A stretch of DNA of 57,405 bases from assembly GCA_029717555.1 (NCBI GenBank), contig JAMDHS010000015.1, positions 248,001 through 305,405 of the forward strand, written 5' to 3'. This document shows positions 2,620 to 40,150 of this stretch, in pieces. The translations under genes were made by a program, and so were the position numbers. Within the stretch, counting starts at the first letter, position 1; every line of letters begins with the position of its first letter. The notes beneath the pieces were generated by a model that searched no databases, was not told where the DNA came from, and worked only from the letters and a program-made list of their open reading frames with translations. Origin of the DNA: Peribolospora baueri. Taxonomy: Eukaryota.

Positions 2620-4596
2620 CTACCCACGGACGCGAGCGCGGAGCGAAGTAACCAGCGGCGTTAGGAAATTTCTTGACCGGCTTGGAGGTTTGAACACTTC
2701 GCGACGCTGCGAATAGAAAGCCTCACCGATATATTCTCCGTCGCTATTCTTGCCCTTCTCCAGTGCACCGAGATTGCCCCTAGGAGTAATAAGATCAAAC
2801 GCTTTGGCCGGCTTGTCCTCGCGCTTGTCTTCTGCGCTCTGGACAGAATCATCATCGCTGTCGTCCCCGTCGTCCGAGTCAGAGCCCGAACCGGACGTTT
2901 CGGAACCGGAGGAGGAAGAGGCGGAGCCGTCTGATCCGTCGGCGTAGGAGTCTTCGCTGTTGGACTTGGTAGCGATTGGCAGGGGCTTTGTAGGGGACCG
3001 CATAGGCTTCTTGGGCGACCGTCCAGCGGTGCTCACAGAAGAATCGGCCTTGTGCTTGCCGTCCGCTTTGCTCGCAGTTGGACTGCCCGCCGACATGGCC
3101 GTAGAAGCCGCTGGCGACGCTGCGGTCGCTTGTTGTGATGCGCGTGCTGGATTAAGGGGAGAGCCATGCACCGGCACGGAGGACGAGGCAACCGGGCCGG
3201 CAGATTGCGAAGATTTGGCCTGCCGGTGGGCCAAGTTCAGGAGGATATCGATTGGTCAGCCTGACGGGGCCTGCGTTGCTGGACAAGGTGTTTCTCACTC
3301 GTGACATGGGTGTGCCTTCCAAAACACCGGAGCCCGGGCCCTTTCCTGGCGGGGCTGAAAGCAGAAAACCGGAACCCGTGAGAGAATAGAACCAACCGGT
3401 GAGAGACAGACTTTGATGTGCACCACTTACTACTAGTTCCTGTTTTCATCTTCTTACTATTACTTGGAGAGCCCTTGGGACCACCCTCGCTCACCGAGGG
3501 ACTCGGGGAAAGCGCTCTTTTGCCGTTAGCATTCAAACCGGTCGTTACAACAGAAGCTTTCTGTTCTGTAAAAGTGAAGAGCTGTCATCTTTAGCACTTC
3601 CACAAACTTTTTATACGGGACTCGTTCACTCACTTCGGCCCTTCTTCTTAGACCCCTCCTTTTCTCCGTCCTCCGCCTCGCTGAGCACATAAGGGGAAGC
3701 AGACCCCGAGCCACGATCGGAAGACGTGACCACTGGGGCAGCGGCAGACATGCGCGCCTTGGCGTTACGCGCGGTCGCACGGCGGTTGCCTGAGCGGTTC
3801 ATGCAAGAGGAAAGGTGTGCGGCATAGCGGTTTGAAGACACCTGTGACGGAATGAAAAACATACGCCACGGTCAACGTGCGGCCGCCATATAAGACATGA
3901 ACGATGTTGGAGAAATACTCGCCTGCCTGGAACATACGAGACATTCGTAAAGCGGGTTGTCTTTATAGTAGTCAGTCTTCGCAGCTTCGGTGCCCGAGGA
4001 GGCGGCTGTCGTGGATGAGTTTGAACTCGATACCCCATTGCCGGCTCCGCCTGACGTGGCACCTGAAGAGTTGGTCGGGGCAGTGGAATACAGATGTGCT
4101 GTAGACAAAGAAAAACCGGGTAAACCCTGTGTGGAAGGCGTGACAAGCTCGGAGGACACCCATGCCATGCTCACCTCGACACCTGGGCGAGAGGAGAGAG
4201 ATCCGGCATGATCGAAATAAAAAAAAGCAATGAGGGAGACGCTCAAAGCTGTTGAAGGCTTCGCGCAAGCGCCCACTCCTTGATCCTATACGTCCGAACG
4301 GTCATGTCGTATGATCCTCACCGATTCCCACATGCAGCACAAATGCCTCGCGCCCTCTTAACTTCCCTGTGCGCCCGCATGGCCACCTCCATGATCACAT
4401 CATCAACCAGTCCGTCCATCAGCCGGTTCGCCTGAAATGATAGTTGGAAAAGGCTTCATGTCAATGTATGGCCTTCAATCGACCACGGCGCGGACCAGGC
4501 CGCCGTGAAAGAAGGCAGGGCCACAACGGCGACGTTAGGCCTCCTACTGACCAGCCGCTTCTTCTCAGCCTCCAACTCGTTGGCCTCCTCCGTCAT
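2620..4596 (-). CDS. SGF11: SAGA deubiquitination module subunit Sgf11 with long Ser/Asp-rich C-terminus, multi-exon
   Basis: N-terminal ANRLMDGLVDDVIMEVAMRAHREVKR helix. Spliced zinc finger YECLVCSRQ|VSSNRYAAHLSSCM followed by a basic RRATARNA segment. The 3' exon structure is less certain. Confidence 0.85.
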
Positions 4597-18400: not shown

Positions 18401-19939
18401 CCTGCTCCTCTACTTGACTCTCCAGCGCCGCTTTGTCCTGCTCGAGCACCGCGATCTGACGGCGAAGCTTGGACACCTCCCTTCGCCCGCCGCCCTCTCC
18501 GACGCCAACACTGCCGCTCAAAGCAGACCGCCCACCGTCGTCGTCGGAAGAGTCCCCACCTCCCTCACCCTCGACGTCGACATGCCTCTTCCGCCGCCTT
18601 CTCTCCCTGCGCCTCTCCTCGTCCGCTTCGAGCAGCGTCTGGGTCGTCTCCTCCAAGTTGCGCCTCAGCTCGCTCACTTGACCCTCCAACTCGGCGACCT
18701 GCTGACGAAGCTCGTCGCGCTCCTGGATGGCCTCCTCCTTGCGCTCTCGTTCCGCTTCCAGATCCGAGCGGATATACGAGATTTCAGCTTGCGATGCCTG
18801 CGCAGCCCCCCAGAGGCGTGCAATAGAGAGGGAGTATGACAAGACTGAGCAATCCGATAGGCGAGCGAGAAACAGAACCCGAACCACAACACAAGCGGTC
18901 TCTCTCCCAACTCACGTTCGGATCTTCCTCCCAGCTGCCCTTCTCCTTGGCCTCCCTGAGCTCATTCTCCAACCTCTCCCTCTCTTCCCTCTCTCGCTGG
19001 CTTGATTCCTCTGCCTCCTGAGCCTTCCTCCGCGCCTCCTCAAGGTCGTCAACGAGCCTCTCCTTGTCCCTCCTTGCATCGCGCAAGGCCTTGTGCTGCT
19101 CCCTCAGCAGCCTCCGGTGCTCGCGCAGATCCATCTCAATACGCTCGTACCGCTCCATCGTCGCCCGCATCAGGCGCTTCTCCATCTCGTCGTACGCGTC
19201 CGGATCGAGCTTCATGAGCTTGTCCTTGAGCAGTTGCACCTCTAGCTTGAGGCTAAAGTTCTCTTTGCCCAGCTCGTCCACTTTCTGCAAGCCCCCAAAG
19301 TTGGTCGATAAGCAAGAAGAGACTGCGACGGGAAGAGCCGGCACGGCATCATCGCATCCCTTGAAGACTCACCAGCTGCTGCTCCCTCAACGTGGGCGCA
19401 GCCGTGCTCTTCCGCCCTGTCCGCCGACCAGGTCCAGGGGTGGCGTCGGCCGCATCTCCTCCGCGACCAAGCTCGGCAGGATCGAAAGACGTTTCCCCCG
19501 AAGCGTCCGCGACGGCCGCCCTGAGACTCAGGTCCAGCCTTCCCACATCGCCGATGGAGTCGTCGGTGGCCGTCCGAACGCCGTGGGGCCTCCCTGCATC
19601 GCTGCGACTGCGCGAGTTCCGCCCGCCCGTCGATAAACCCTCATCGTATGCCTCGAGAGCGGCGCGGGTGGGTTGGGGGGTCCACGGAGCGCTATGGGCG
19701 TCGTCTCTCCTTTCCGTGCGAGCCCCTGATCCTCCTGTTGCCGCTCCGCCTCGTCCTAGTCCGTCTCCCACACTGCCAGCGCCCCCGCTTCCGGTCATGG
19801 CGTCCGCATATCCCTCGCCGTCGTTAGCCTCGCTGAGGATTGAAAGATTGGGAAAGGCGGACGCGTTTCCGAGAGTGTGAGTCGCCGTCGGGTCGTCCTC
19901 GTCGTGCGCCATGCCGAGCGTCGCAGATGGGGCGGCCAT
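15441..19939 (-). CDS. Mto1/ApsB-type microtubule-organiser (gamma-tubulin complex receptor), long coiled coil, multi-exon
   Basis: CM1/centrosomin motif TLREQQ...VDELGKENFSLKLEVQLL. Extensive coiled coil, EQLSERNTLLLTV-type motif and C-terminal KWQARIKELE...ERVKRERQGGKERV. The last exon ends VLEKQLETLKR*. Confidence 0.85.
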
Positions 19940-31700: not shown

Positions 31701-32647
31701 TAGTGACAGGCCACCGAAAGGCAAGGTGGCTCATGTTAAGGATGAGGAACCGGAAGATGACGAGCGAAAGGGGAGCCACAGTACGCAGCAGAAGTCTTCC
31801 GTAGACGAGGTCGGCGATCTCGCCTCGTCGGCTACGACCCGGCGCATGGATAACGCGTCACACCAGAGGAATCGCAGCACGTCCAAAGCGACTCACATAA
31901 GCGGCAGCAACACGTCGCATGATGACTTACGGCGAAAGATGTCGAACAAAATGTCCATTAATCCGTGGGCGGCCCCTGCCGACGCACCGGTCATTGAACC
32001 TCACGCTTTTGCAGATCCGCTCGTAGACGAATTCTTCAAGGTGCGTACGTGGAGAAGGCGTAGAGTGTTCTCCCAAATTCAGGAGCATAGACGTTCAGCC
32101 GGCTCACACCACTGTCTCCCTTCAGGACATGTGGATGGCGTCTGCGGTGCACAATACCCAAATTTTCCGGAAAGTCTTCAAGTGCGTACCCGACGATACG
32201 GTGACGACTTGGCAAGAGTACAAAGTCTTTCAGGCATGGTCCGAGCGCCTGGCTCGCTCGGGCGCTCGAGACTCGTCAGAGCTCAGAAGCAGCCGTCGTC
32301 CTAGCAGGGCCGGTGGCCCGTCTGGGACTGGCGACGGCGTGGCTGGTGATACCGAGCACGTTAATGCGGAAGTTCAATCCGAATCGACCGGAGCGCGTGC
32401 CAGAAGGCCGAGTGAGGCTGCCACTCAAGCGCCCGGCGGTAACCTGAAGAACTCGGTAGCGCAGCCGCCGAAGCCGGGCCAAGATGACGGCTTTTCAGCC
32501 AACGAGCTTGACCAAATGGAGGCGCTTCTCTACGAGCTCAGAGGCAACCTCGTCATTCATCCTCTTCGCTTCCTCGAGGCCGAAGATTTTACTGGCAACT
32601 TCAAATACCCGCTGGATCGTATCCAGCCTATGCCGATCTACGACTAG
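25793..32647 (+). CDS. SPO14: Phospholipase D1 (PX-PH plus two HKD motifs), many exons including 23- and 19-nt micro-exons
   Basis: PX region FRIELEYG...KWVIYRELRDF, NRFGSFAPIR, WLVDG|RDYFW, IYIHDW|WLSPEL, WAH|HEKLCVID...GGLDLCFGRWD, RMPWHD and EQVYVHGK|TMVVDDR...GSANINERSQRGDRDSE. Confidence 0.95.
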
Positions 32648-33045
32648 AAGACATTCCTTGCCCTTCCGTATTTTTCGAGACCTGATTATCAACAGACACT
32701 TCCACTCCTTGACATGTCTTTATCTTTTTCTTCCTCCTGTGGTCATTCCTTTCTGTCATCTGCCACTGTGATTTATCGCTGTTCGAATATGTATACCAAA
32801 GCGGACGTCCTCGGATACCACTCTGGCTCAAGTTGCAATGGAGTGCTCCTGGGCCCAGCTATATAAAGACAGCAAGCAAGGATACGACATGGTGACCTCT
32901 GTTCAGCGTTCAAACAGTAAACAGAGACACAATGATCGAATTTCCCTAAATCTACCCATCTCGATAGTAGCGTCCCTCCGACCCGGTTGTCTGGTCGATG
33001 TCATTCCAATGAAACTCGAGCCGCCAGCGGACCCAAAAGACGTCC

Positions 33046-35616
33046 TCATTCTGGCAGTAACGAAAAGTGAGAGGAAGAGAGGTTGGATCAATGAAGGAGC
33101 GGAATGGAAAGCTGAAGGTAACAACTCACTCGTGAAGATGGATACCACGTCATCCTAGCGAAGCAGAAACGGCAAGAAACCGACGATGCGACCATGAGCC
33201 AAACAGTCAGCGGTGGGAATGTTTCTCCTGGCCCATAAATGAGACTTGACCTACGCTCGCGACGACATGGTTGAGGCCAACTTTTTGTGCTCCCGGAAAC
33301 TTCGAGCTCTTTCCGTAGACGAGCGCATACTTAAACTGGTCCGCCAACGAGCGGTGGATGGAGTGGCACTGAGGACGGGCGGAGAAAAAAAAGAAATGCA
33401 AGTGAGATGAAGTGACGCGAGAACAGAAGACTTAAGAGGGACTGGCGGTAGCGGGGAAGGAAACGCACGACATGCTCGATGGTAGCTCCTTTGCGCACGA
33501 CCAGCGGGTCATGTAAGTCGGGATGCTCCCCCCGCTTCTTTGTATATACGCGGTTCATGTCAAGCTCGGTCTGCAGAAGGGCAAGCACCAAGAAAGAAAT
33601 TTTAAGTAATGATGACGTTATTCAAAGAGGACAGAACCTTCCGACTTGTCTCGTACCTACCCAGATACGTTCAAGCAAGTAGTCGAGGTTCAAGCTGAGC
33701 TCGCAGGAGATCACGACAGATTTGGGTTGTCGCGCCAGCTGGTCCACCTGCTCAAGACTGCACGACAGACAGCGCTTGCGATGTCAGTGGAGGGAATCGG
33801 ACAGTCAAATAGTAAGATGCACGTCGGACGCGCACCTGATTGAGTCGATCTTATTGTAGCAGTAGAGCGCCGGGATGTATTTGCGATTACCTATGTGCGA
33901 GCGAAACAGTCAGAGAATGATCCTGACAGCACTGTGCGCTGACCGACGATAGAATATGAATTCAACACACCGATCAATACGTCGATGAACTGATCGACGG
34001 TCACATCCTCCCTTAGCATGACGTCGCAGCTAAGAGTAAGGAGCAACAGAGTGGACAAATGAGTCAAATCGCATTGGTATGAGTGATCCAGTGTGACACA
34101 CTACCCACTTGTGGATCTTGTAATTCTGCAAGATTTGTCGGATCATCTTCTCGTCAATGTTCTTCAACGTCACGCCTTGACCCTTGGAAATGGTGATGCC
34201 TCCGGACACTTTCTTCTTGAACACGACTATGTAAGAAAAGGCGATTATACGGGACACACCCCATCAGAACAGCGCGAGAGGCGAATACCGCAGAAAACGG
34301 GTGACACTTTACCGTCCGGCCTTTCCTGGTTCAATCGAATGCCGACTTCCTCCAACTCGTGTTCCAAAAGCCCTCGCTGCTGCTCAGACTTTGTGGCGTC
34401 CATGAAGATCAATATCAAATCTGCCGTCTTGGCAACGGACACCACCTGTCTTCCTCGACCTCGGCCTTGCGAGGCGCCTTCGATGATTCCGGGCAAGTCG
34501 AGCAGCTAGCAAAGGTCAAGCGAGTCGAAATCAGCCGTAGATCCTTGAACGTCACGAAAAAGCTTCACCCGTACCTGTATGCGAGCACCTTCATATTCGA
34601 GGACTCCAGGAATGGCAGTCAACGTCGTGTACTCATATGCTGCCGTTGCACTAGCAGTGGCGGTGACCTGCGTGAGACAGAGGATACAAGTTCGCAAGCC
34701 TGCAGCGAGCGGTGGACAATAAGGAGGACGGCGTACATACCTTGTTCAGCAACGTCGATTTGCCGACCGACGGGAAGCCGATAAGCGCAACTCGAGCATC
34801 TGATGACGACAAAGAACAAGCGAACCGGGCAGTGAGCACAAAGGACGCCGCGCTCAATGGACTTTGTTATCTTCTCTTGATCACGCATACCCACCTCCAC
34901 TTTTCATAACCTGACATCGATGGGGCAGAAGCTGGCCGTTAGCAGGGAGACCATCGACCACTCGCAAGCCGTGCCGGTGGCGGCTAAAAGTGACTATACC
35001 CCACCGTGACTTGGAACCCAAGGTAGTGTCGGAGAGGGGAGAGTAGGGAGAAGGCAGCAAAAAACTCACATCAAATCCCTCTCCTGGTTTGCCTCCTTTG
35101 GTCGTAGGCTCGAGCAGCTGAGCTCGTAGCTTTGCCATCTTCGCCTTCAGCAAACCGAGGTGATACCTAACGAAAAGCGAGCGAGGCGTGGAGGAGAGAA
35201 AGACGACAAATGGTAAGAGTCAAATGGGACGCCAAAAGTTCCAAAAAAGCACTTTCAGGTACGCACTCCGTCGCCTGAAGGAAAGCACAGGCATCGCACG
35301 CCGAAGGGAATGGATTGTGAGCGTCCAGAGAGCAAACCATCGTTCGATCGTCCAGGGGCAGTGGATGGCGGACTCGCCTTGTTCTTCTGCGTCCTCGCCA
35401 TCTCCTCTGCAACCATTCGTACAGAAGGGAAAGACAATCACGAGTTCAATATGTAAATGGGCGACGGAGGCGAATGGACACCCACCCTCGATCTCTTTCT
35501 GCGCTCAACCGCCGGGACGTCGGACGAGGGGCACGGACAATGAGCTCGCAGATCTTCTCAACCGGAAAAAGACGCTCAAGGGACATTTAGCGCACCATCT
35601 TCTCCAAGACACCCAT
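33046..35616 (-). CDS. RBG2: Developmentally regulated GTP-binding protein DRG2, many short exons
   Basis: MGVLEK...[75 protein letters not shown] and TGS domain RVYTKKRG...QKVGLNH...DDVVSIFTK*. Confidence 0.93.
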
Positions 35617-36019
35617 ACTGGCAAGATTTCAAGCTGTGCGGTTTGCGACTTTCAAGATGTTTGGTGGGGATTTCTAGGTGATGGACAGGAACGACCTGCC
35701 GGCCTCGAGGGACAAGGGACGAGGTCGTGGTTGTTCTCGACACTTGCCGCAGCGATCACTGGACGAACCACCGTCGTTCCGGTCTTCGGACTTCCCATCT
35801 CAAGAGCAACAACACCAGGGAAAATCACATCGTTTCGACATGCAGCTGACTTTACAGAGGGCACGAGGAAGTAGATATCTAGCGATTTCATTGCACCACG
35901 ATAAAACGACGGTAAAGGCACATTGGTAACGCAAACGCAGAAGACTGTCGGGCCATGACCGTGAAAACACCTAGTCAGCTGGGACCGCTGGGGCGGTTCG
36001 CAAACATGGCCAACGCGCA

Positions 36020-36128
36020 CAGACGAGCACTCCGATAGCCGTTCTTAGTGTAATTGCTTTTCGGCATCGCCGTCAACGACGGCTCAGCATTAGCATGGTA
36101 ATAAAGTAATCTTCATTGTGCTCGTCTG
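36020..36128 (-). ncRNA. snR53: Box C/D snoRNA snR53-like (18S Am796 guide) with a second 18S guide
   Basis: 11-bp terminal stem CAGACGAGCAC/GTGCTCGTCTG and C box ATGAAGA. Guide CCATGCTAATG followed by D' CTGA, complementary to 18S CATTAGCATGG. Second guide ACTAAGAACGGCTAT followed by D box CGGA. Confidence 0.85.
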
Positions 36129-36275
36129 GACGTGCCCTGGGCCGTCCCGCCTGAAAGACAAATGCTCACCTCACCAGACCAACCCATCGCCAGTACAGCA
36201 TATGCCAGCAGAAATCTAGACGGACCAACAGCAGAAATGGTCAGCACAAACTCGTCGCTCTTCCAATTACTGCGT

Positions 36276-36365
36276 GCGATCAGTCAGCAGTTGAATCATG
36301 TCCGCATCGCCGAGTCTCAAATCGGCGTGAAGGAATTTGATGGTATCTTGTTGACATCATTTCAC
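36276..36365 (-). ncRNA. Box C/D snoRNA, predicted LSU guide equivalent to human SNORD5 (28S Cm2422)
   Basis: C box ATGATGT, D' CCGA, D box CTGA (36280-36283) and a short terminal stem. Guide TTCAACTGCTG is complementary to LSU CAGCAGTTGAA. Confidence 0.75.
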
Positions 36366-36518
36366 CGTGCATACCAAGACTCCGACTATTGATGCTCACC
36401 CACTATGACCAGACGAGGCACTTGATGACTTGCTACCTGACTAAAATAGTGAAAGAGAAAGATACCAACACGTTCAGTTTATTGCCCGGCGGGACGGGCG
36501 CAATCAGAAGAACGAACG

Positions 36519-36615
36519 CGGCGACGGCTCAGTGAATATTTAGGTTTGGCATATTTTGGTCGATCATCAGAGCGCAGATAGGGGCGACACGTTGGTCTCA
36601 TCGTAGCCGTCGCCG
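36519..36615 (-). ncRNA. snR67: Box C/D snoRNA snR67-like (LSU P-loop Gm2619 guide)
   Basis: 10-bp terminal stem CGGCGACGGC/GCCGTCGCCG, C box ACGATGA and D box CTGA. Guide GTGTCGCCCC is complementary to LSU GGGGCGGCAC (one G-U). It lies upstream of snR53, as in the yeast snR67-snR53 cluster. Confidence 0.75.
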
Positions 36616-36764
36616 TGTGCTCACATCGAAGGCGGATCAAACACTCACAATATATTTATTCACCAAACGTCGACAGTACTGTGGCATTAAGCAGGTGGCG
36701 TAGAAAAGGTCGATATCAGCTCTTCCACTGCATGCCAAACAATACTCGATCAAAACACCGAAGG

Positions 36765-36866
36765 GGCATCATGGTTAAAAAGCTCGTTTGTCAAAGATAG
36801 GTTTCCCCAAGGAGTGCAGGTTGTCACGCCCGCGTCGGGTGAAGAAATTTTTGATAATCATCTGCC
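36765..36866 (-). ncRNA. snR47: Box C/D snoRNA snR47 / U36 (25S Am2220 and 18S Am619 double guide)
   Basis: C box ATGATTA. Guide AATTTCTTCAC with D' CCGA (LSU GTGAAGAAATT), accessory CTTTGACA, guide ACGAGCTTTTTAAC (18S GTTAAAAAGCTCGT) with D box ATGA, and a GGCA/TGCC stem. Confidence 0.9.
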
Positions 36867-36962
36867 GGCAGAGAAAAAGACGATCGGGACTCACCATGCT
36901 CGGAACGGAAAGGGGATAATTAAGGTAAAAAGATCTCCCCGTGAAAAACGGGTTGAAAGTTG

Positions 36963-37573
36963 ATCAGAGAGACGAGCAAGAGTAAGCCCCATTGTGTTAC
37001 AGTCACGCTACGCTCTCGAGAGGCGTAGACGTGACCGCGAAGCGCATGACTGTCGGCTATGACGAACGTAAATATGCGCGCCCGCGGTTCCCTAGTCGTG
37101 AAGACCGGGATCCACCAGCATATCTGTCACCTCGGGAGGACTCCTATCTTCGTCGCTCAACCTTGGCTGCCCTCGAAAGACAAGACGGATACGTGGGCTC
37201 GGCAGGCGAGCGAAGGATGGGCACCGCTGGTGAGGCACGCGACTCGCCTGTGAAGGGGTGCCGAGCTAAAGTCGTCCCTCAAAACGAGGGCGCACAGCAG
37301 CAGCACAAAACCCAGAACCGTTTCACTCGCCTTCCACTCCCCTCGCACGACGACCCTGCCGCACTTGGCCTCATGCTTGACGCAAGCCGCTTTCCGGCGG
37401 GACAGGGAGCGACGTGGTCGACAGAGAGAGGTCGACGAGCGAGACGAACGGCGAGCGCAGATGTCCGGGGACTTTCCCTGCAGCTGAGCTGAAGTCGAGC
37501 GAGAGAGCGAGGACGCAAACCCGTCGACCTGTGTGGTGAGCTGCGAAAGCGCTCCTTTGCTCGTCTCTCTGAT
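36963..37573 (-). ncRNA. NME1: RNase MRP RNA (~611 nt)
   Basis: Perfect 17-bp P1 (37557-37573 with 36963-36979). CR-I GAAAGTCCCC (37467-37476) and CR-V ACAATGGGGCTTACT (36981-36995) form P4. P2 GGAGCGC/GCGCTTC is preceded by CR-IV AGTCA. P3 with internal loop (GCAGCT..AGGTCGA / TCGACTT..AGCTGC), a GAAAG-capped P8-like hairpin (~37387-37400) and a P19 hairpin (~37002-37035) are also present. Confidence 0.92.
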
Positions 37574-37663
37574 GGAGGGAAGAAAGAAGGAAGAAAGAGG
37601 AAGAAAGCGCGAGCAGAAATATTCGCGCACTCTCGACAAGCGTGGGAATTGTTCCTAAGCCAA

Positions 37664-37691
37664 GTCACGTGTACAAAATGTTTGTCACGTG
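37664..37691. promoter_or_regulatory. Tandem GTCACGTG motifs in the bidirectional RNase MRP / VPS4 promoter
   Basis: GTCACGTG at 37664-37671 and 37684-37691, about 90 nt from the MRP 5' end and about 185 nt from the VPS4 ATG. Confidence 0.55.
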
Positions 37692-37875
37692 GAGATTTAG
37701 CTGCGGCTCCAGATCTTGGCGAGTTCCAATGGTAAGCCGGTTCGTGTTGTCAAGGCTCTCTCGCCCACCTCACCATTATACTCCACCGCGCCCGCACCTC
37801 GGCGTCGCCTTCGCCTTTTCAACCCGTGCAACATACCCACGACGATTGAGCAGCACTGGACTGCCGCCACCCGCC

Positions 37876-40150
<2,275 letters not shown>

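What the first reader, a model, noticed from the sequence alone, without database searches (positions are those of the whole stretch)
35888..37573. RNase MRP RNA placed head-to-tail with a four-intron C/D snoRNA host: a candidate rRNA-maturation ncRNA 'operon'
Seen in sequence: a complete RNase MRP RNA (P1, P2, P3, P4, P8 and P19 recognisable) ends at 36963. Only 68 nt later on the same strand is the first 5' splice site (36894) of a host unit whose four introns carry snR47, snR67-like, SNORD5-like and snR53-like snoRNAs. Known: MRP cleaves pre-rRNA, C/D snoRNAs methylate it, yeast NME1 is a Pol II transcript, and fungal snoRNA clusters are often intronic in non-coding hosts. Inference: there is no room for a separate promoter, so MRP RNA may be exon 1 of the snoRNA host, with five ribosome-biogenesis RNAs released from one precursor. 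That would require an unusual 3'-end processing step for MRP. I do not know of this arrangement being described, but I cannot search the literature.
Basis: partly seen in the sequence, partly recalled or inferred. Interest (0 to 1): 0.85.

Follow-up and report, generated by a model that had tools for sequence, protein, structure and literature searches.

The report
RNase MRP gene beside snoRNA host
In this fungus, probably a basidiomycete, the gene for the RNA of the rRNA-cutting enzyme RNase MRP is followed about 70 bases later, on the same strand, by a small spliced non-coding gene whose four introns each carry a methylation guide RNA; the pairing is real and echoes a pattern seen in other fungi, but whether the two are made as one transcript is still open.

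Summary
Rfam finds a full-length RNase MRP RNA on the minus strand (36970-37567, 67.5 bits, E 1.2e-16). Downstream on the same strand lie four GTGAG[TC] introns of 184-225 nt, each holding one C/D-type snoRNA: snR47-like, snR67-like, one unassigned, and snR53/snoR53Y-like.

The idea that MRP is exon 1 of the host could not be tested. No RNA run was listed and no genome is held.

For a real linkage: in 6 of 29 metagenomic MRP loci, my scan finds a C/D snoRNA within 400 nt downstream on the same strand. The three control stretches gave 1, 0 and 0. Yeast NME1 and SNR66 are also neighbours on one strand.

Against one transcript:
- The spacer holds two T5 tracts. Such tracts follow stand-alone MRP genes (8 of 11) but seldom snoRNA tandems (1 of 7).
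- The spacer has no folded processing element.
- In three of the loci closest by MRP ends, a protein-coding gene starts 68, about 75 and 303 nt after MRP. This weakens the "no room for a promoter" argument.

My estimate is about 0.5 for two coupled but separate units and about 0.35 for one precursor. I class it as a new variant of a known kind, of moderate interest.

The parts
37568..37875 (.). Shared upstream region between the MRP RNA gene (-) and a divergent VPS4-like gene (+, ATG at 37876). It holds two CACGTGAC boxes (37664-37671 and 37684-37691), an AATATTT element about 50 nt before the MRP 5' end, and a long CT-rich run up to it.
   Evidence: MIT, AAA and AAA_lid_3 Pfam hits on + strand ORFs from 37876. 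CACGTGAC occurs 10 times in the window against 2.23 expected. Sequence read. Promoter function is inferred.
36970..37567 (-). RNase MRP RNA gene (598 nt by Rfam). P1 can be extended by eye to 37570/36966. A large insert of about 330 nt lies in the variable domain.
   Evidence: RF00030, 67.5 bits, E 1.2e-16, model 1-266 of 266. CR-I and CR-V motifs are present.
36895..36969 (-). Spacer, and the putative exon 1 of the host. It has T5 tracts at 36944-36948 and 36927-36931, a TTAATTAT element at about 36915-36923, a CT-rich run, and then ATG|GTGAGT.
   Evidence: Sequence. T-tract positions +22 and +39. T>=5 background is 0.57 per kb per strand. The fold is no better than shuffles, z -0.17. No tRNA found.
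36679..36894 (-). Intron 1 (216 nt) with snoRNA 1, snR47-like, at about 36765-36866. C box AUGAUUA, D' CCGA, D AUGA, 4-bp terminal stem GGCA/UGCC.
   Evidence: 5' and 3' splice sites. snR47 match of 26.9 bits with both guide stretches conserved. The boxes were read by eye.
36649..36678 (-). Exon 2 (30 nt)
36441..36648 (-). Intron 2 (208 nt) with snoRNA 2, snR67-like, at 36520-36614. C box ACGAUGA at 36598-36604, D box CUGA at 36529-36532, and a terminal stem read as 9 bp by eye (scan: 10 bp).
   Evidence: snR67, 24.7 bits, E 0.025. C/D scan stem 10. Splice sites.
36400..36440 (-). Exon 3 (41 nt)
36216..36399 (-). Intron 3 (184 nt; alternative 3' site at 36270) with snoRNA 3 at about 36290-36365. 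C box AUGAUGU, D' CCGA, overlapping CUGA boxes at 36290-36297, no clear terminal stem, target unassigned.
   Evidence: Only weak Rfam matches (snoR116, 16.2 bits, E 1). Boxes read by eye. This is the least certain of the four.
36170..36215 (-). Exon 4 (46 nt; 100 nt with the alternative 3' site)
35945..36169 (-). Intron 4 (225 nt) with snoRNA 4, snR53/snoR53Y-like, at 36021-36126. C box AUGAAGA, D' CUGA at 36084-36087 preceded by the guide ACCAUGCUAAUG, D box CGGA, and a terminal stem read as 10 bp by eye (scan: 11 bp).
   Evidence: snoR53Y 17.2 bits and snoU6-53 15.5 bits, both aligned over the D' guide. Stem 11. For the family equivalence snR53 = snoR53Y, and the double 18S/U6 target in Neurospora, see the PMC2780460 table.
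35850..35944 (-). Last exon of the host. Its 3' end is not defined; the next GTGAGT on this strand is only at 35069.
   Evidence: No RNA data.

Best explanation
This is a tightly coupled tandem of two Pol II-type non-coding units.

Unit 1 is the RNase MRP RNA gene. It is driven from the 308-bp region it shares with the divergent VPS4-like gene. Most polymerases stop, or the RNA is cut and trimmed back, at the two T5 tracts 16-45 nt past its 3' helix. This would resemble yeast NME1, where a T tract follows the gene and Rex3 trims the tail.

Unit 2 is a non-coding host of the kind known from Candida and Neurospora. It has five tiny exons and four introns, one C/D snoRNA per intron, and includes the snR67 + snR53 pair that is polycistronic in yeast. 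Its RNA starts in the 68-75-nt spacer, giving a short exon 1 like exons 2-4. The snoRNAs are released by splicing, debranching and exonuclease trimming.

The close spacing lets the host use the regulatory region and open chromatin of the strongly expressed MRP gene, so the five RNAs are co-regulated. Some read-through from MRP into the host is likely but is not the main source.

Shown: the genes, their order, the splice and box signals and the T tracts. Inferred: the polymerase, the start site, termination and co-regulation.
For: 1. MRP and the four-intron snoRNA unit are as described.

2. There are two T5 tracts at +22 and +39 of the spacer. Only 0.57 such tracts per kb per strand occur in the window.

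3. Among 18 metagenomic MRP loci confirmed by Rfam (18 of the 20 scanned), a T>=5 tract within 60 nt after MRP occurs in 8 of 11 loci without a downstream snoRNA, against 1 of 7 with one. Fisher p is 0.05. It is 0.015 if the duplicate pair L056/L058 is counted once.

4. The spacer folds no better than shuffles (z -0.17). The MRP-snR66 spacers of five ascomycete-like loci share a Y-shaped fold, with 9 of 22 pairs showing compensatory change.

5. An independent mRNA gene can start just as close. AICARFT/IMPCHase begins 68 nt (L037, Pfam 1.8e-82), about 75 nt (L054) and 303 nt (L011) after MRP.

6. Inner exons of 30-46 nt make a short exon 1 natural.

7. Yeast background, from passages read: a T tract follows NME1 and Rex3 trims the RNA (PMC12129344); Pol II occupies NME1 and snR66 (bioRxiv 10.1101/352906).
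Against: No transcript data of any kind, so the start site in the spacer is pure inference.

The spacer holds no convincing core promoter. The only TATA-like element (about 36915-36923) lies too close to the 5' splice site, so a separate promoter would have to lie inside the MRP gene.

Local same-strand gene gaps are about 1-1.6 kb by Pfam-supported ORFs, so a 70-nt gap is unusual for this genome. The L037/L054 genomes look more compact.

T5 is the shortest tract counted, and L040 has a T5 tract yet still carries a snoRNA 90 nt after MRP.

The T-tract contrast rests on few loci that are not independent: five of the seven tandems belong to one snR66-type family.

That MRP-to-snoRNA linkage recurs with different snoRNAs in different lineages is easier to explain by a shared transcript.
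Confidence: 0.5

Rival explanations
1. One precursor. Pol II starts at the MRP promoter and reads through the weak T5 tracts, so that MRP plus the spacer form exon 1 of the host. Splicing of introns 1-4 frees the snoRNAs. The MRP 3' end is then made by release of exon 1 after the first splicing step, or by 3'-to-5' trimming of the spliced exons back to helix P1 and its bound proteins.
For: Only 68-75 nt separate MRP from a consensus 5' splice site, in a genome whose neighbouring gene gaps are about 1 kb or more. The spacer has no recognisable promoter.

An MRP gene followed by a same-strand C/D snoRNA recurs. My scan finds one within 400 nt downstream in 6 of 29 MRP-motif loci, against 1, 0 and 0 in the three control stretches. 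The snoRNAs are snR66-like (L032) and SNORD96-like (L066). Yeast NME1 and SNR66 are adjacent on one strand (PMC9731477 table), and snR66 is a known Rnt1p substrate (PMC4334505 passage).

Precedents from the literature:
- Fungal telomerase RNA 3' ends are made by the spliceosome (PMC4299874 abstract).
- Ustilago telomerase RNA is cut out of an mRNA (PMC9564094 abstract).
- MRP and P RNA genes lie inside introns of Pol II genes in some animals (PMC9849065 passage).

Earlier scan notes e1-7350974 and e1-7680269 report the same theme in other fungi. These are leads only.
Against: Two T5 tracts lie in the spacer, the class of signal that follows stand-alone MRP genes. The spacer has no conserved fold. 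There is no RNA evidence. None of the 113 metagenomic loci carries these four guides, so conservation of this particular linkage is untested. L037 and L054 show that close spacing does not need a shared transcript.
Confidence: 0.35
2. MRP RNA is a Pol III transcript, as in animals and plants, that terminates at the T5 tracts. The host is an unrelated Pol II gene that happens to lie next to it.
For: T5 tracts directly after the gene, and no T>=5 tract inside the 598-nt gene.
Against: No TATA element near -30 and no A/B-box-like motif were seen by eye upstream of or inside the gene. The region before the 5' end is a CT-rich run. Several fungal-type MRP genes in the metagenomic set carry internal T5-T9 tracts that Pol III would not pass: L002, L046, L047, L040, L007 and L011. 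Yeast NME1 is occupied by Pol II. Chance adjacency does not explain the recurrence.
Confidence: 0.07
3. The host is a protein-coding gene for a peptide of about 58 residues that starts at the ATG ending exon 1 (36895-36897).
For: The spliced exons keep one frame open for 58 codons, or 76 with the alternative 3' site.
Against: Other frames and start codons of the same spliced RNA give open frames of 58 and 64 codons, so this one is not distinctive. The overlapping minus-strand ORF 35655-36044 has no Pfam match. The spliced peptide itself was not searched (see Tried and rejected).
Confidence: 0.05

Closest known systems
S. cerevisiae NME1-SNR66 neighbourhood (YNCN0013W / YNCN0014W, chromosome XIV)
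   Same: An RNase MRP RNA gene directly followed on the same strand by a C/D snoRNA gene (gene table in PMC9731477). Both are occupied by Pol II (bioRxiv 10.1101/352906). snR66 is listed as an Rnt1p substrate, so it has a processed precursor (PMC4334505). Six metagenomic loci show the same MRP-to-snR66-type tandem about 90 nt apart; one of them, L046, is cut by its contig end.
   Different: Here the downstream unit is not a single exonic snoRNA. It is a spliced host with four intronic snoRNAs of other families; no snR66-type guide lies in it, and the one near-match in the window is at 18411. The gap of about 160 nt in yeast is recalled, not checked. No paper I could search states that NME1 and SNR66 share a transcript.
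Non-coding multi-intron snoRNA host genes of Candida, Neurospora and other fungi, and the yeast polycistronic snR67-snR53 cluster
   Same: One C/D snoRNA per intron, very short exons and no clear coding capacity. Most C/D snoRNAs of the Candida parapsilosis group lie in introns of non-coding mono- or polycistronic transcripts (PMC5033589 passages). Yeast has five polycistronic clusters, one of them snR67-snR53 (bioRxiv 10.1101/352906, Methods passage). Here snR67-like and snR53-like snoRNAs share one unit.
   Different: None of those descriptions places the cluster behind an MRP RNA gene. 'MRP' does not occur in the main text of PMC5824354 or PMC2780460. This cluster also holds an snR47-like and an unassigned snoRNA.
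Non-coding RNAs matured out of longer Pol II transcripts: spliceosome-made 3' ends of fungal telomerase RNA, and Ustilago maydis telomerase RNA from an mRNA 3' UTR
   Same: These show how a large functional RNA could be exon 1, or part of a longer Pol II transcript, and still be matured (abstracts of PMC4299874 and PMC9564094).
   Different: They concern telomerase RNA, not MRP. In fission yeast the 5' splice site lies immediately after the mature end (recalled), whereas here it is 68-75 nt away. Nothing of the kind is shown for this locus.
RNase MRP / RNase P RNA genes in unusual genomic settings
   Same: MRP RNA, RNase P RNA, SRP RNA and a possible U14 lie in the rDNA spacer of Auricularia. 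MRP and P RNA genes lie in introns of protein genes in Caenorhabditis and Drosophila, and insect RNase P RNA depends on the host gene's Pol II promoter (PMC9849065 passages). MRP RNA genes can therefore ride on other transcription units and sit beside ribosome-biogenesis genes.
   Different: In those cases the RNA sits inside an intron or an rDNA spacer. It does not sit in front of a snoRNA host.

Membership tests
RNase MRP RNA (Rfam RF00030) | Covariance-model score at or above the curated gathering score over the full model | tested here: met
   67.5 bits against 50, E 1.2e-16, model 1-266 of 266
RNase MRP RNA (Rfam RF00030) | Conserved regions CR-I (GAAAGUCCCCGGAC) and CR-V (AAUGGGGCUUA), closing helices and P3 hairpin | tested here: met
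   All are aligned with high posterior. The same motifs occur in the 18 metagenomic MRP RNAs confirmed.
RNase MRP RNA (Rfam RF00030) | P8 hairpin with a GARAR-type loop (motif recalled) | tested here: inconclusive
   Rfam left its P8 columns unaligned. By eye a hairpin with a GGAAAG loop lies near 37385-37400, and GGAAAGC recurs in L037, L054 and L011.
RNase MRP RNA (Rfam RF00030) | Assembles with Pop proteins and cleaves pre-rRNA | not testable with these tools
   Needs biochemistry
Box C/D snoRNA | C (RUGAUGA) and D (CUGA) boxes brought together by a terminal stem | tested here: met
   snoRNA 2 and snoRNA 4 meet it: stems of 10 and 11 bp, with one mismatch in each C box; D is CUGA in snoRNA 2 and CGGA in snoRNA 4. 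snoRNA 1 has a 4-bp stem and a non-standard D box (AUGA). snoRNA 3 has no stem. For those two the test is inconclusive.
Box C/D snoRNA | Guide of 10 nt or more, complementary to rRNA or snRNA, ending next to D or D' | tested here: inconclusive
   No rRNA of this organism was available. The evidence is indirect: the letters shared with the Rfam families snR47, snR67, snoR53Y and U6-53 are exactly the guide stretches. All scores are below the gathering cut-offs (26.9 vs 61, 24.7 vs 55, 17.2 vs 43, 15.5 vs 36).
Non-coding intronic snoRNA host gene | Canonical splice signals around each snoRNA, one snoRNA per intron | tested here: met
   Four GTGAG[TC] 5' sites, branch-like CTGAY motifs and YAG 3' sites, in a uniform layout
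Non-coding intronic snoRNA host gene | Spliced RNA exists and lacks a conserved reading frame | tested here: inconclusive
   No RNA run was listed. A 58-codon frame is present but is no longer than frames in the other phases.
Dicistronic/polycistronic MRP-snoRNA precursor (proposed) | A single transcript spans MRP and the snoRNA unit | not testable with these tools
   No RNA holder listed. Read laying could not be used.
Dicistronic/polycistronic MRP-snoRNA precursor (proposed) | No terminator-type signal between the two units | tested here: not met
   T5 tracts at +22 and +39. T>=5 tracts occur in 8 of 11 stand-alone MRP loci and in 1 of 7 tandem loci.
Dicistronic/polycistronic MRP-snoRNA precursor (proposed) | Conserved processing structure in the spacer | tested here: not met
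   z -0.17 against shuffles and no tRNA-like call. This contrasts with the folded spacer of the snR66-type tandems. It is not needed if splicing does the cutting.
Dicistronic/polycistronic MRP-snoRNA precursor (proposed) | Linkage conserved in relatives | tested here: inconclusive
   No close relative was found: 0 of 113 loci carry the four guides, and the nearest MRP RNAs have a purine-synthesis gene downstream. More distant lineages do show MRP-to-snoRNA tandems.

The most novel reading that the evidence does not exclude
RNase MRP RNA is made here as the first exon of a spliced Pol II precursor that also yields four methylation guides. The spliceosome, followed by 3' trimming, sets the MRP 3' end. 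This would be one form of a wider, undescribed fungal habit of producing MRP RNA and C/D snoRNAs from one transcript (snR66 in ascomycetes, the snR67-snR53 cluster here), tying the rRNA cleavage and rRNA methylation machineries to one promoter.
Probability: 0.33. Interest if true: 0.8.

Novelty: new variant of a known kind. Interest (0 to 1): 0.5.

Why it matters
How the RNase MRP RNA is transcribed and matured is known in detail only for a few model organisms. If MRP RNA and snoRNAs share a precursor in fungi, this would be a new biogenesis route for an essential ribozyme. It would also be a simple way to co-regulate rRNA cleavage and rRNA modification.

Even without a shared transcript, the repeated placement of C/D snoRNAs directly behind MRP genes is a pattern that I did not find described in the papers I could search. 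It was seen in yeast, in six snR66-type metagenomic loci, in one SNORD96-type locus and here. It can be checked quickly in the many sequenced fungal genomes and transcriptomes.

For genome annotation, this locus adds an MRP RNA, four snoRNAs and a non-coding host that ordinary pipelines would miss. All four snoRNAs score below Rfam's cut-offs.

Tried and rejected
- **Whole genome and relatives:** none is held for this window. The records behind loci L097, L109, L104, L111 and L105 are not held either.
- **RNA evidence:** no RNA holder was listed for 35700-37900. Read laying was therefore never run.
- **Earlier scan notes by place and by sequence:** nothing found.
- **Search for the window's four snoRNAs elsewhere:** eight guide motifs gave 0 matches in 113 metagenomic loci. 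blastn of the host region gave only three 15-nt chance hits.
- **Synteny with the closest MRP loci:** there is none. The purine gene of L037 is not in the window, and tblastx of their upstream flanks found nothing.
- **tRNA-like spacer:** ARAGORN found none in the window, and none in any of the 7 tandem loci.
- **An intron ending just before MRP:** the CT-rich run plus CAG at 37570-37572 resembles a 3' splice site, but the only upstream GTATGT/GTGAGG sites lack a branch motif at a usable distance (by eye). Rejected.
- **Host as a coding gene:** rejected as unsupported.
- **ORF 35188-35874 (+) facing the host's 3' end:** no Pfam family and no homologue.
- **Literature:** searches for a described MRP-snoRNA co-transcript and term look-ups inside PMC5824354, PMC2780460 and PMC8216456 found none. 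The library lacks most subscription journals, and the supplements were not read.
- **Direct guide-target pairing:** not done, because no rRNA or U6 sequence of this organism was at hand.
Full report
**What is there**

A scan of the whole window against Rfam at gathering scores gives one match. It is RNase MRP RNA on the minus strand, 36970-37567, at 67.5 bits (cut-off 50), E 1.2e-16, covering the whole model. CR-I, CR-V, the closing helices, P3 and the 3' hairpin are aligned with high posterior. About 330 nt of extra sequence sit in the variable domain.

The gene diverges from a VPS4-like gene: MIT, AAA and AAA_lid_3 hits on the plus strand from the ATG at 37876. The 308 bp between them hold two CACGTGAC boxes 20 nt apart. 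That motif occurs 10 times in the window against 2.2 expected.

The organism is probably a basidiomycete without a close sequenced relative in the protein collection. The best hits of an RRG7-domain ORF are basidiomycete proteins at 31-36% identity.

**The downstream unit**

On the same strand there are GTGAG[TC] sites at 36894, 36648, 36399 and 36169. Each is followed by a CTGAY-type motif and a YAG at 36679, 36441, 36216 (alternative 36270) and 35945. This gives introns of 216, 208, 184 and 225 nt and inner exons of 30, 41 and 46 nt.

Each intron holds one C/D-type RNA in the same relative place. A permissive Rfam scan of 35300-37100 finds the following:
- snR47 at 26.9 bits, with both guide stretches kept.
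- snR67 at 24.7 bits, E 0.025.
- For the fourth RNA, snoR53Y (17.2 bits) and U6-53 (15.5 bits), both over the D' guide.

All are below the families' gathering scores, so they are guide-level resemblances rather than formal memberships.

snoRNA 2 and snoRNA 4 have terminal stems of 10 and 11 bp. Only ten candidates with stems of 8 bp or more occur in the whole window on both strands.

The third RNA has C and D' boxes but no stem, and only unspecific matches. The label 'SNORD5-like' is not supported.

The label 'snR53-like' is right. The Neurospora catalogue lists one snoRNA (Nc CD11) as the homologue of yeast snR53 and plant snoR53Y, with its D' guide predicted to target both 18S-Am793 and U6-Am47 (PMC2780460, table passages).

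Yeast snR67 and snR53 form one of five polycistronic clusters (bioRxiv 10.1101/352906, Methods passage). The unit here therefore looks like that cluster in intronic form, enlarged by two snoRNAs.

The spliced exons keep a 58-codon frame open from the ATG that ends exon 1. Other phases give 58 and 64 codons, so nothing marks it as coding.

**Could the one-transcript idea be tested?**

Not directly. No genome is held for the window and no RNA run was listed. I therefore looked for related loci in metagenomes with the CR-I motif. Of 20 loci chosen for having a CR-V-like motif (nearly all with downstream sequence), 18 have an MRP RNA at gathering score.

None of the 113 carries the window's four guides. 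The MRP RNAs nearest by their ends (L037, L054, L011) align at a mean of only 62% column identity and show no synteny with the window. Whether this particular linkage is conserved in relatives thus remains open.

**Evidence that MRP-snoRNA linkage is a real pattern**

Twenty-nine loci have both MRP motifs. In 6 of them, a simple box-plus-stem scan finds a C/D snoRNA within 400 nt downstream on the same strand (L002, L032, L040, L052, L063, L066). The antisense control gives 1, and the two upstream controls give 0 and 0. A seventh locus (L046) is cut by the contig end within the same snoRNA.

Six of these, counting the cut L046, share one snoRNA about 90 nt after MRP. Its best Rfam match is snR66, at 21.8 bits, below the cut-off of 65, with the guide conserved. 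L066 has a different one, SNORD96-like at 23.3 bits.

In S. cerevisiae, NME1 and SNR66 are neighbours on one strand (PMC9731477 table). Both are occupied by Pol II, and snR66 is a known Rnt1p substrate (PMC4334505 passage).

The snR66-type spacers share a Y-shaped fold, with 9 of 22 pairs showing compensatory change. ARAGORN calls no tRNA there.

Two earlier notes of this scan (e1-7350974, e1-7680269) report the same theme in other fungi. I treat them as leads. My metagenomic loci partly reproduce the second.

**Evidence against one transcript at this locus**

First, the spacer holds T5 tracts at +22 and +39, where the window averages 0.57 such tracts per kb per strand. Among the 18 confirmed MRP loci, a T>=5 tract within 60 nt follows 8 of 11 genes with no snoRNA behind them, but only 1 of 7 with one. 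Fisher p is 0.05, or 0.015 with the duplicate L056/L058 counted once. The sample is small and the tandem loci are related to one another.

In yeast a T tract follows NME1, and Rex3 trims the tail (PMC12129344 passages).

Second, the spacer folds no better than shuffled sequence (z -0.17).

Third, the 'no room for a promoter' argument is weak. In L037, L054 and L011 an AICARFT/IMPCHase gene starts 68, about 75 and 303 nt after MRP on the same strand. An mRNA cut out from behind MRP would lack a cap, so these genes presumably start in the short spacer.

On the other side, Pfam-supported neighbours in this window lie about 1-1.6 kb apart, so 70 nt is unusually tight here. The spacer also shows no convincing core promoter.

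**Polymerase**

There is no TATA near -30, and no A/B-box-like motifs were seen by eye. A CT-rich run precedes the 5' end. Several fungal-type MRP genes in the sample contain internal T5-T9 tracts. Pol II is therefore the likelier enzyme, as in yeast, but this is inference.

**Verdict**

I estimate the readings as follows:
- About 0.5: two coupled but separate units. MRP ends at the T tracts, and the host starts in the spacer and uses the MRP gene's regulatory neighbourhood.
- About 0.35: one precursor, with MRP as exon 1. This remains fully possible, and precedents exist in fungal telomerase RNA (abstracts of PMC4299874 and PMC9564094) and in intron-borne MRP and P RNA genes of animals (PMC9849065 passage).
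- About 0.07: a Pol III MRP gene beside an unrelated host.
- About 0.05: a coding host.

I found no paper that describes an MRP-snoRNA co-transcript or this linkage (searches; look-ups). The library is incomplete and I read no supplements.

I class the locus as a new variant of known kinds: an MRP gene plus a non-coding intronic snoRNA host, echoing yeast NME1-SNR66. Its interest is moderate and would rise sharply if a joined transcript were shown.

Noticed in passing
L037:2931-5373, L054:about 2925-4460, L011:390-3090 (minus strand): In three of the metagenomic fungal loci closest by their MRP ends, the MRP RNA gene is followed on the same strand by an AICAR transformylase/IMP cyclohydrolase gene. 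Its start codon lies 68, about 75 and 303 nt after the MRP 3' end. The synteny is conserved while the spacer shrinks to almost nothing. L037 has T10 and T6 tracts in the spacer; L054 has none.
   Followed up: partly
L002, L052, L063, L046, L032, L040 (about 90 nt downstream of each MRP RNA): An snR66-type C/D snoRNA (D' guide AUAGAGUCAAGC) lies about 90 nt after MRP on the same strand. The spacer of five of these loci shares a Y-shaped fold with compensatory changes (9 of 22 pairs) and mostly lacks T>=5 tracts. It looks like a conserved dicistronic unit, matching the yeast NME1-SNR66 order.
   Followed up: partly
L066:2840-3501: A 396-nt MRP RNA is followed 187 nt later by a SNORD96-like C/D snoRNA with an 8-bp terminal stem. 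A histone-3'-stem-loop-like hairpin (22.3 bits, below the cut-off of 34) lies a further 150 nt on. The organism is unknown and may not be a fungus.
   Followed up: partly
window 36765-36866 (-): A double-guide snR47-like snoRNA occurs in what is probably a basidiomycete. The survey 'The fungal snoRNAome' states that the double-guide snR47 family (CD_67) is found only in Saccharomycotina (PMC5824354 passage). The match is below Rfam's cut-off, but both guide stretches are kept.
   Followed up: no
window 37664-37691, and eight other sites: CACGTGAC (an E-box-type motif) occurs 10 times in the window against 2.2 expected. Two copies lie 20 nt apart, 100-125 nt upstream of the MRP 5' end. It may be a common promoter element of this genome.
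   Followed up: partly
L007, L002, L046, L047, L040, L011 (inside their MRP genes): T5 to T9 tracts occur inside fungal-type MRP RNA genes. Pol III would be expected to stop at them, which fits Pol II transcription of MRP RNA in these lineages.
   Followed up: no
window 32300-35900: About 3.5 kb downstream of the host shows no Pfam-supported ORF. The 228-codon ORF at 35188-35874 (+), which runs towards the host's last exon, has no homologue in the 5.8-billion-protein collection.
   Followed up: partly
L005, L025, L034: Three short contigs have 920-1040 nt between a CR-I motif and a CR-V-like motif. That suggests MRP RNAs of well over 1 kb, as reported for Candida. They were not scanned with Rfam.
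   Followed up: no
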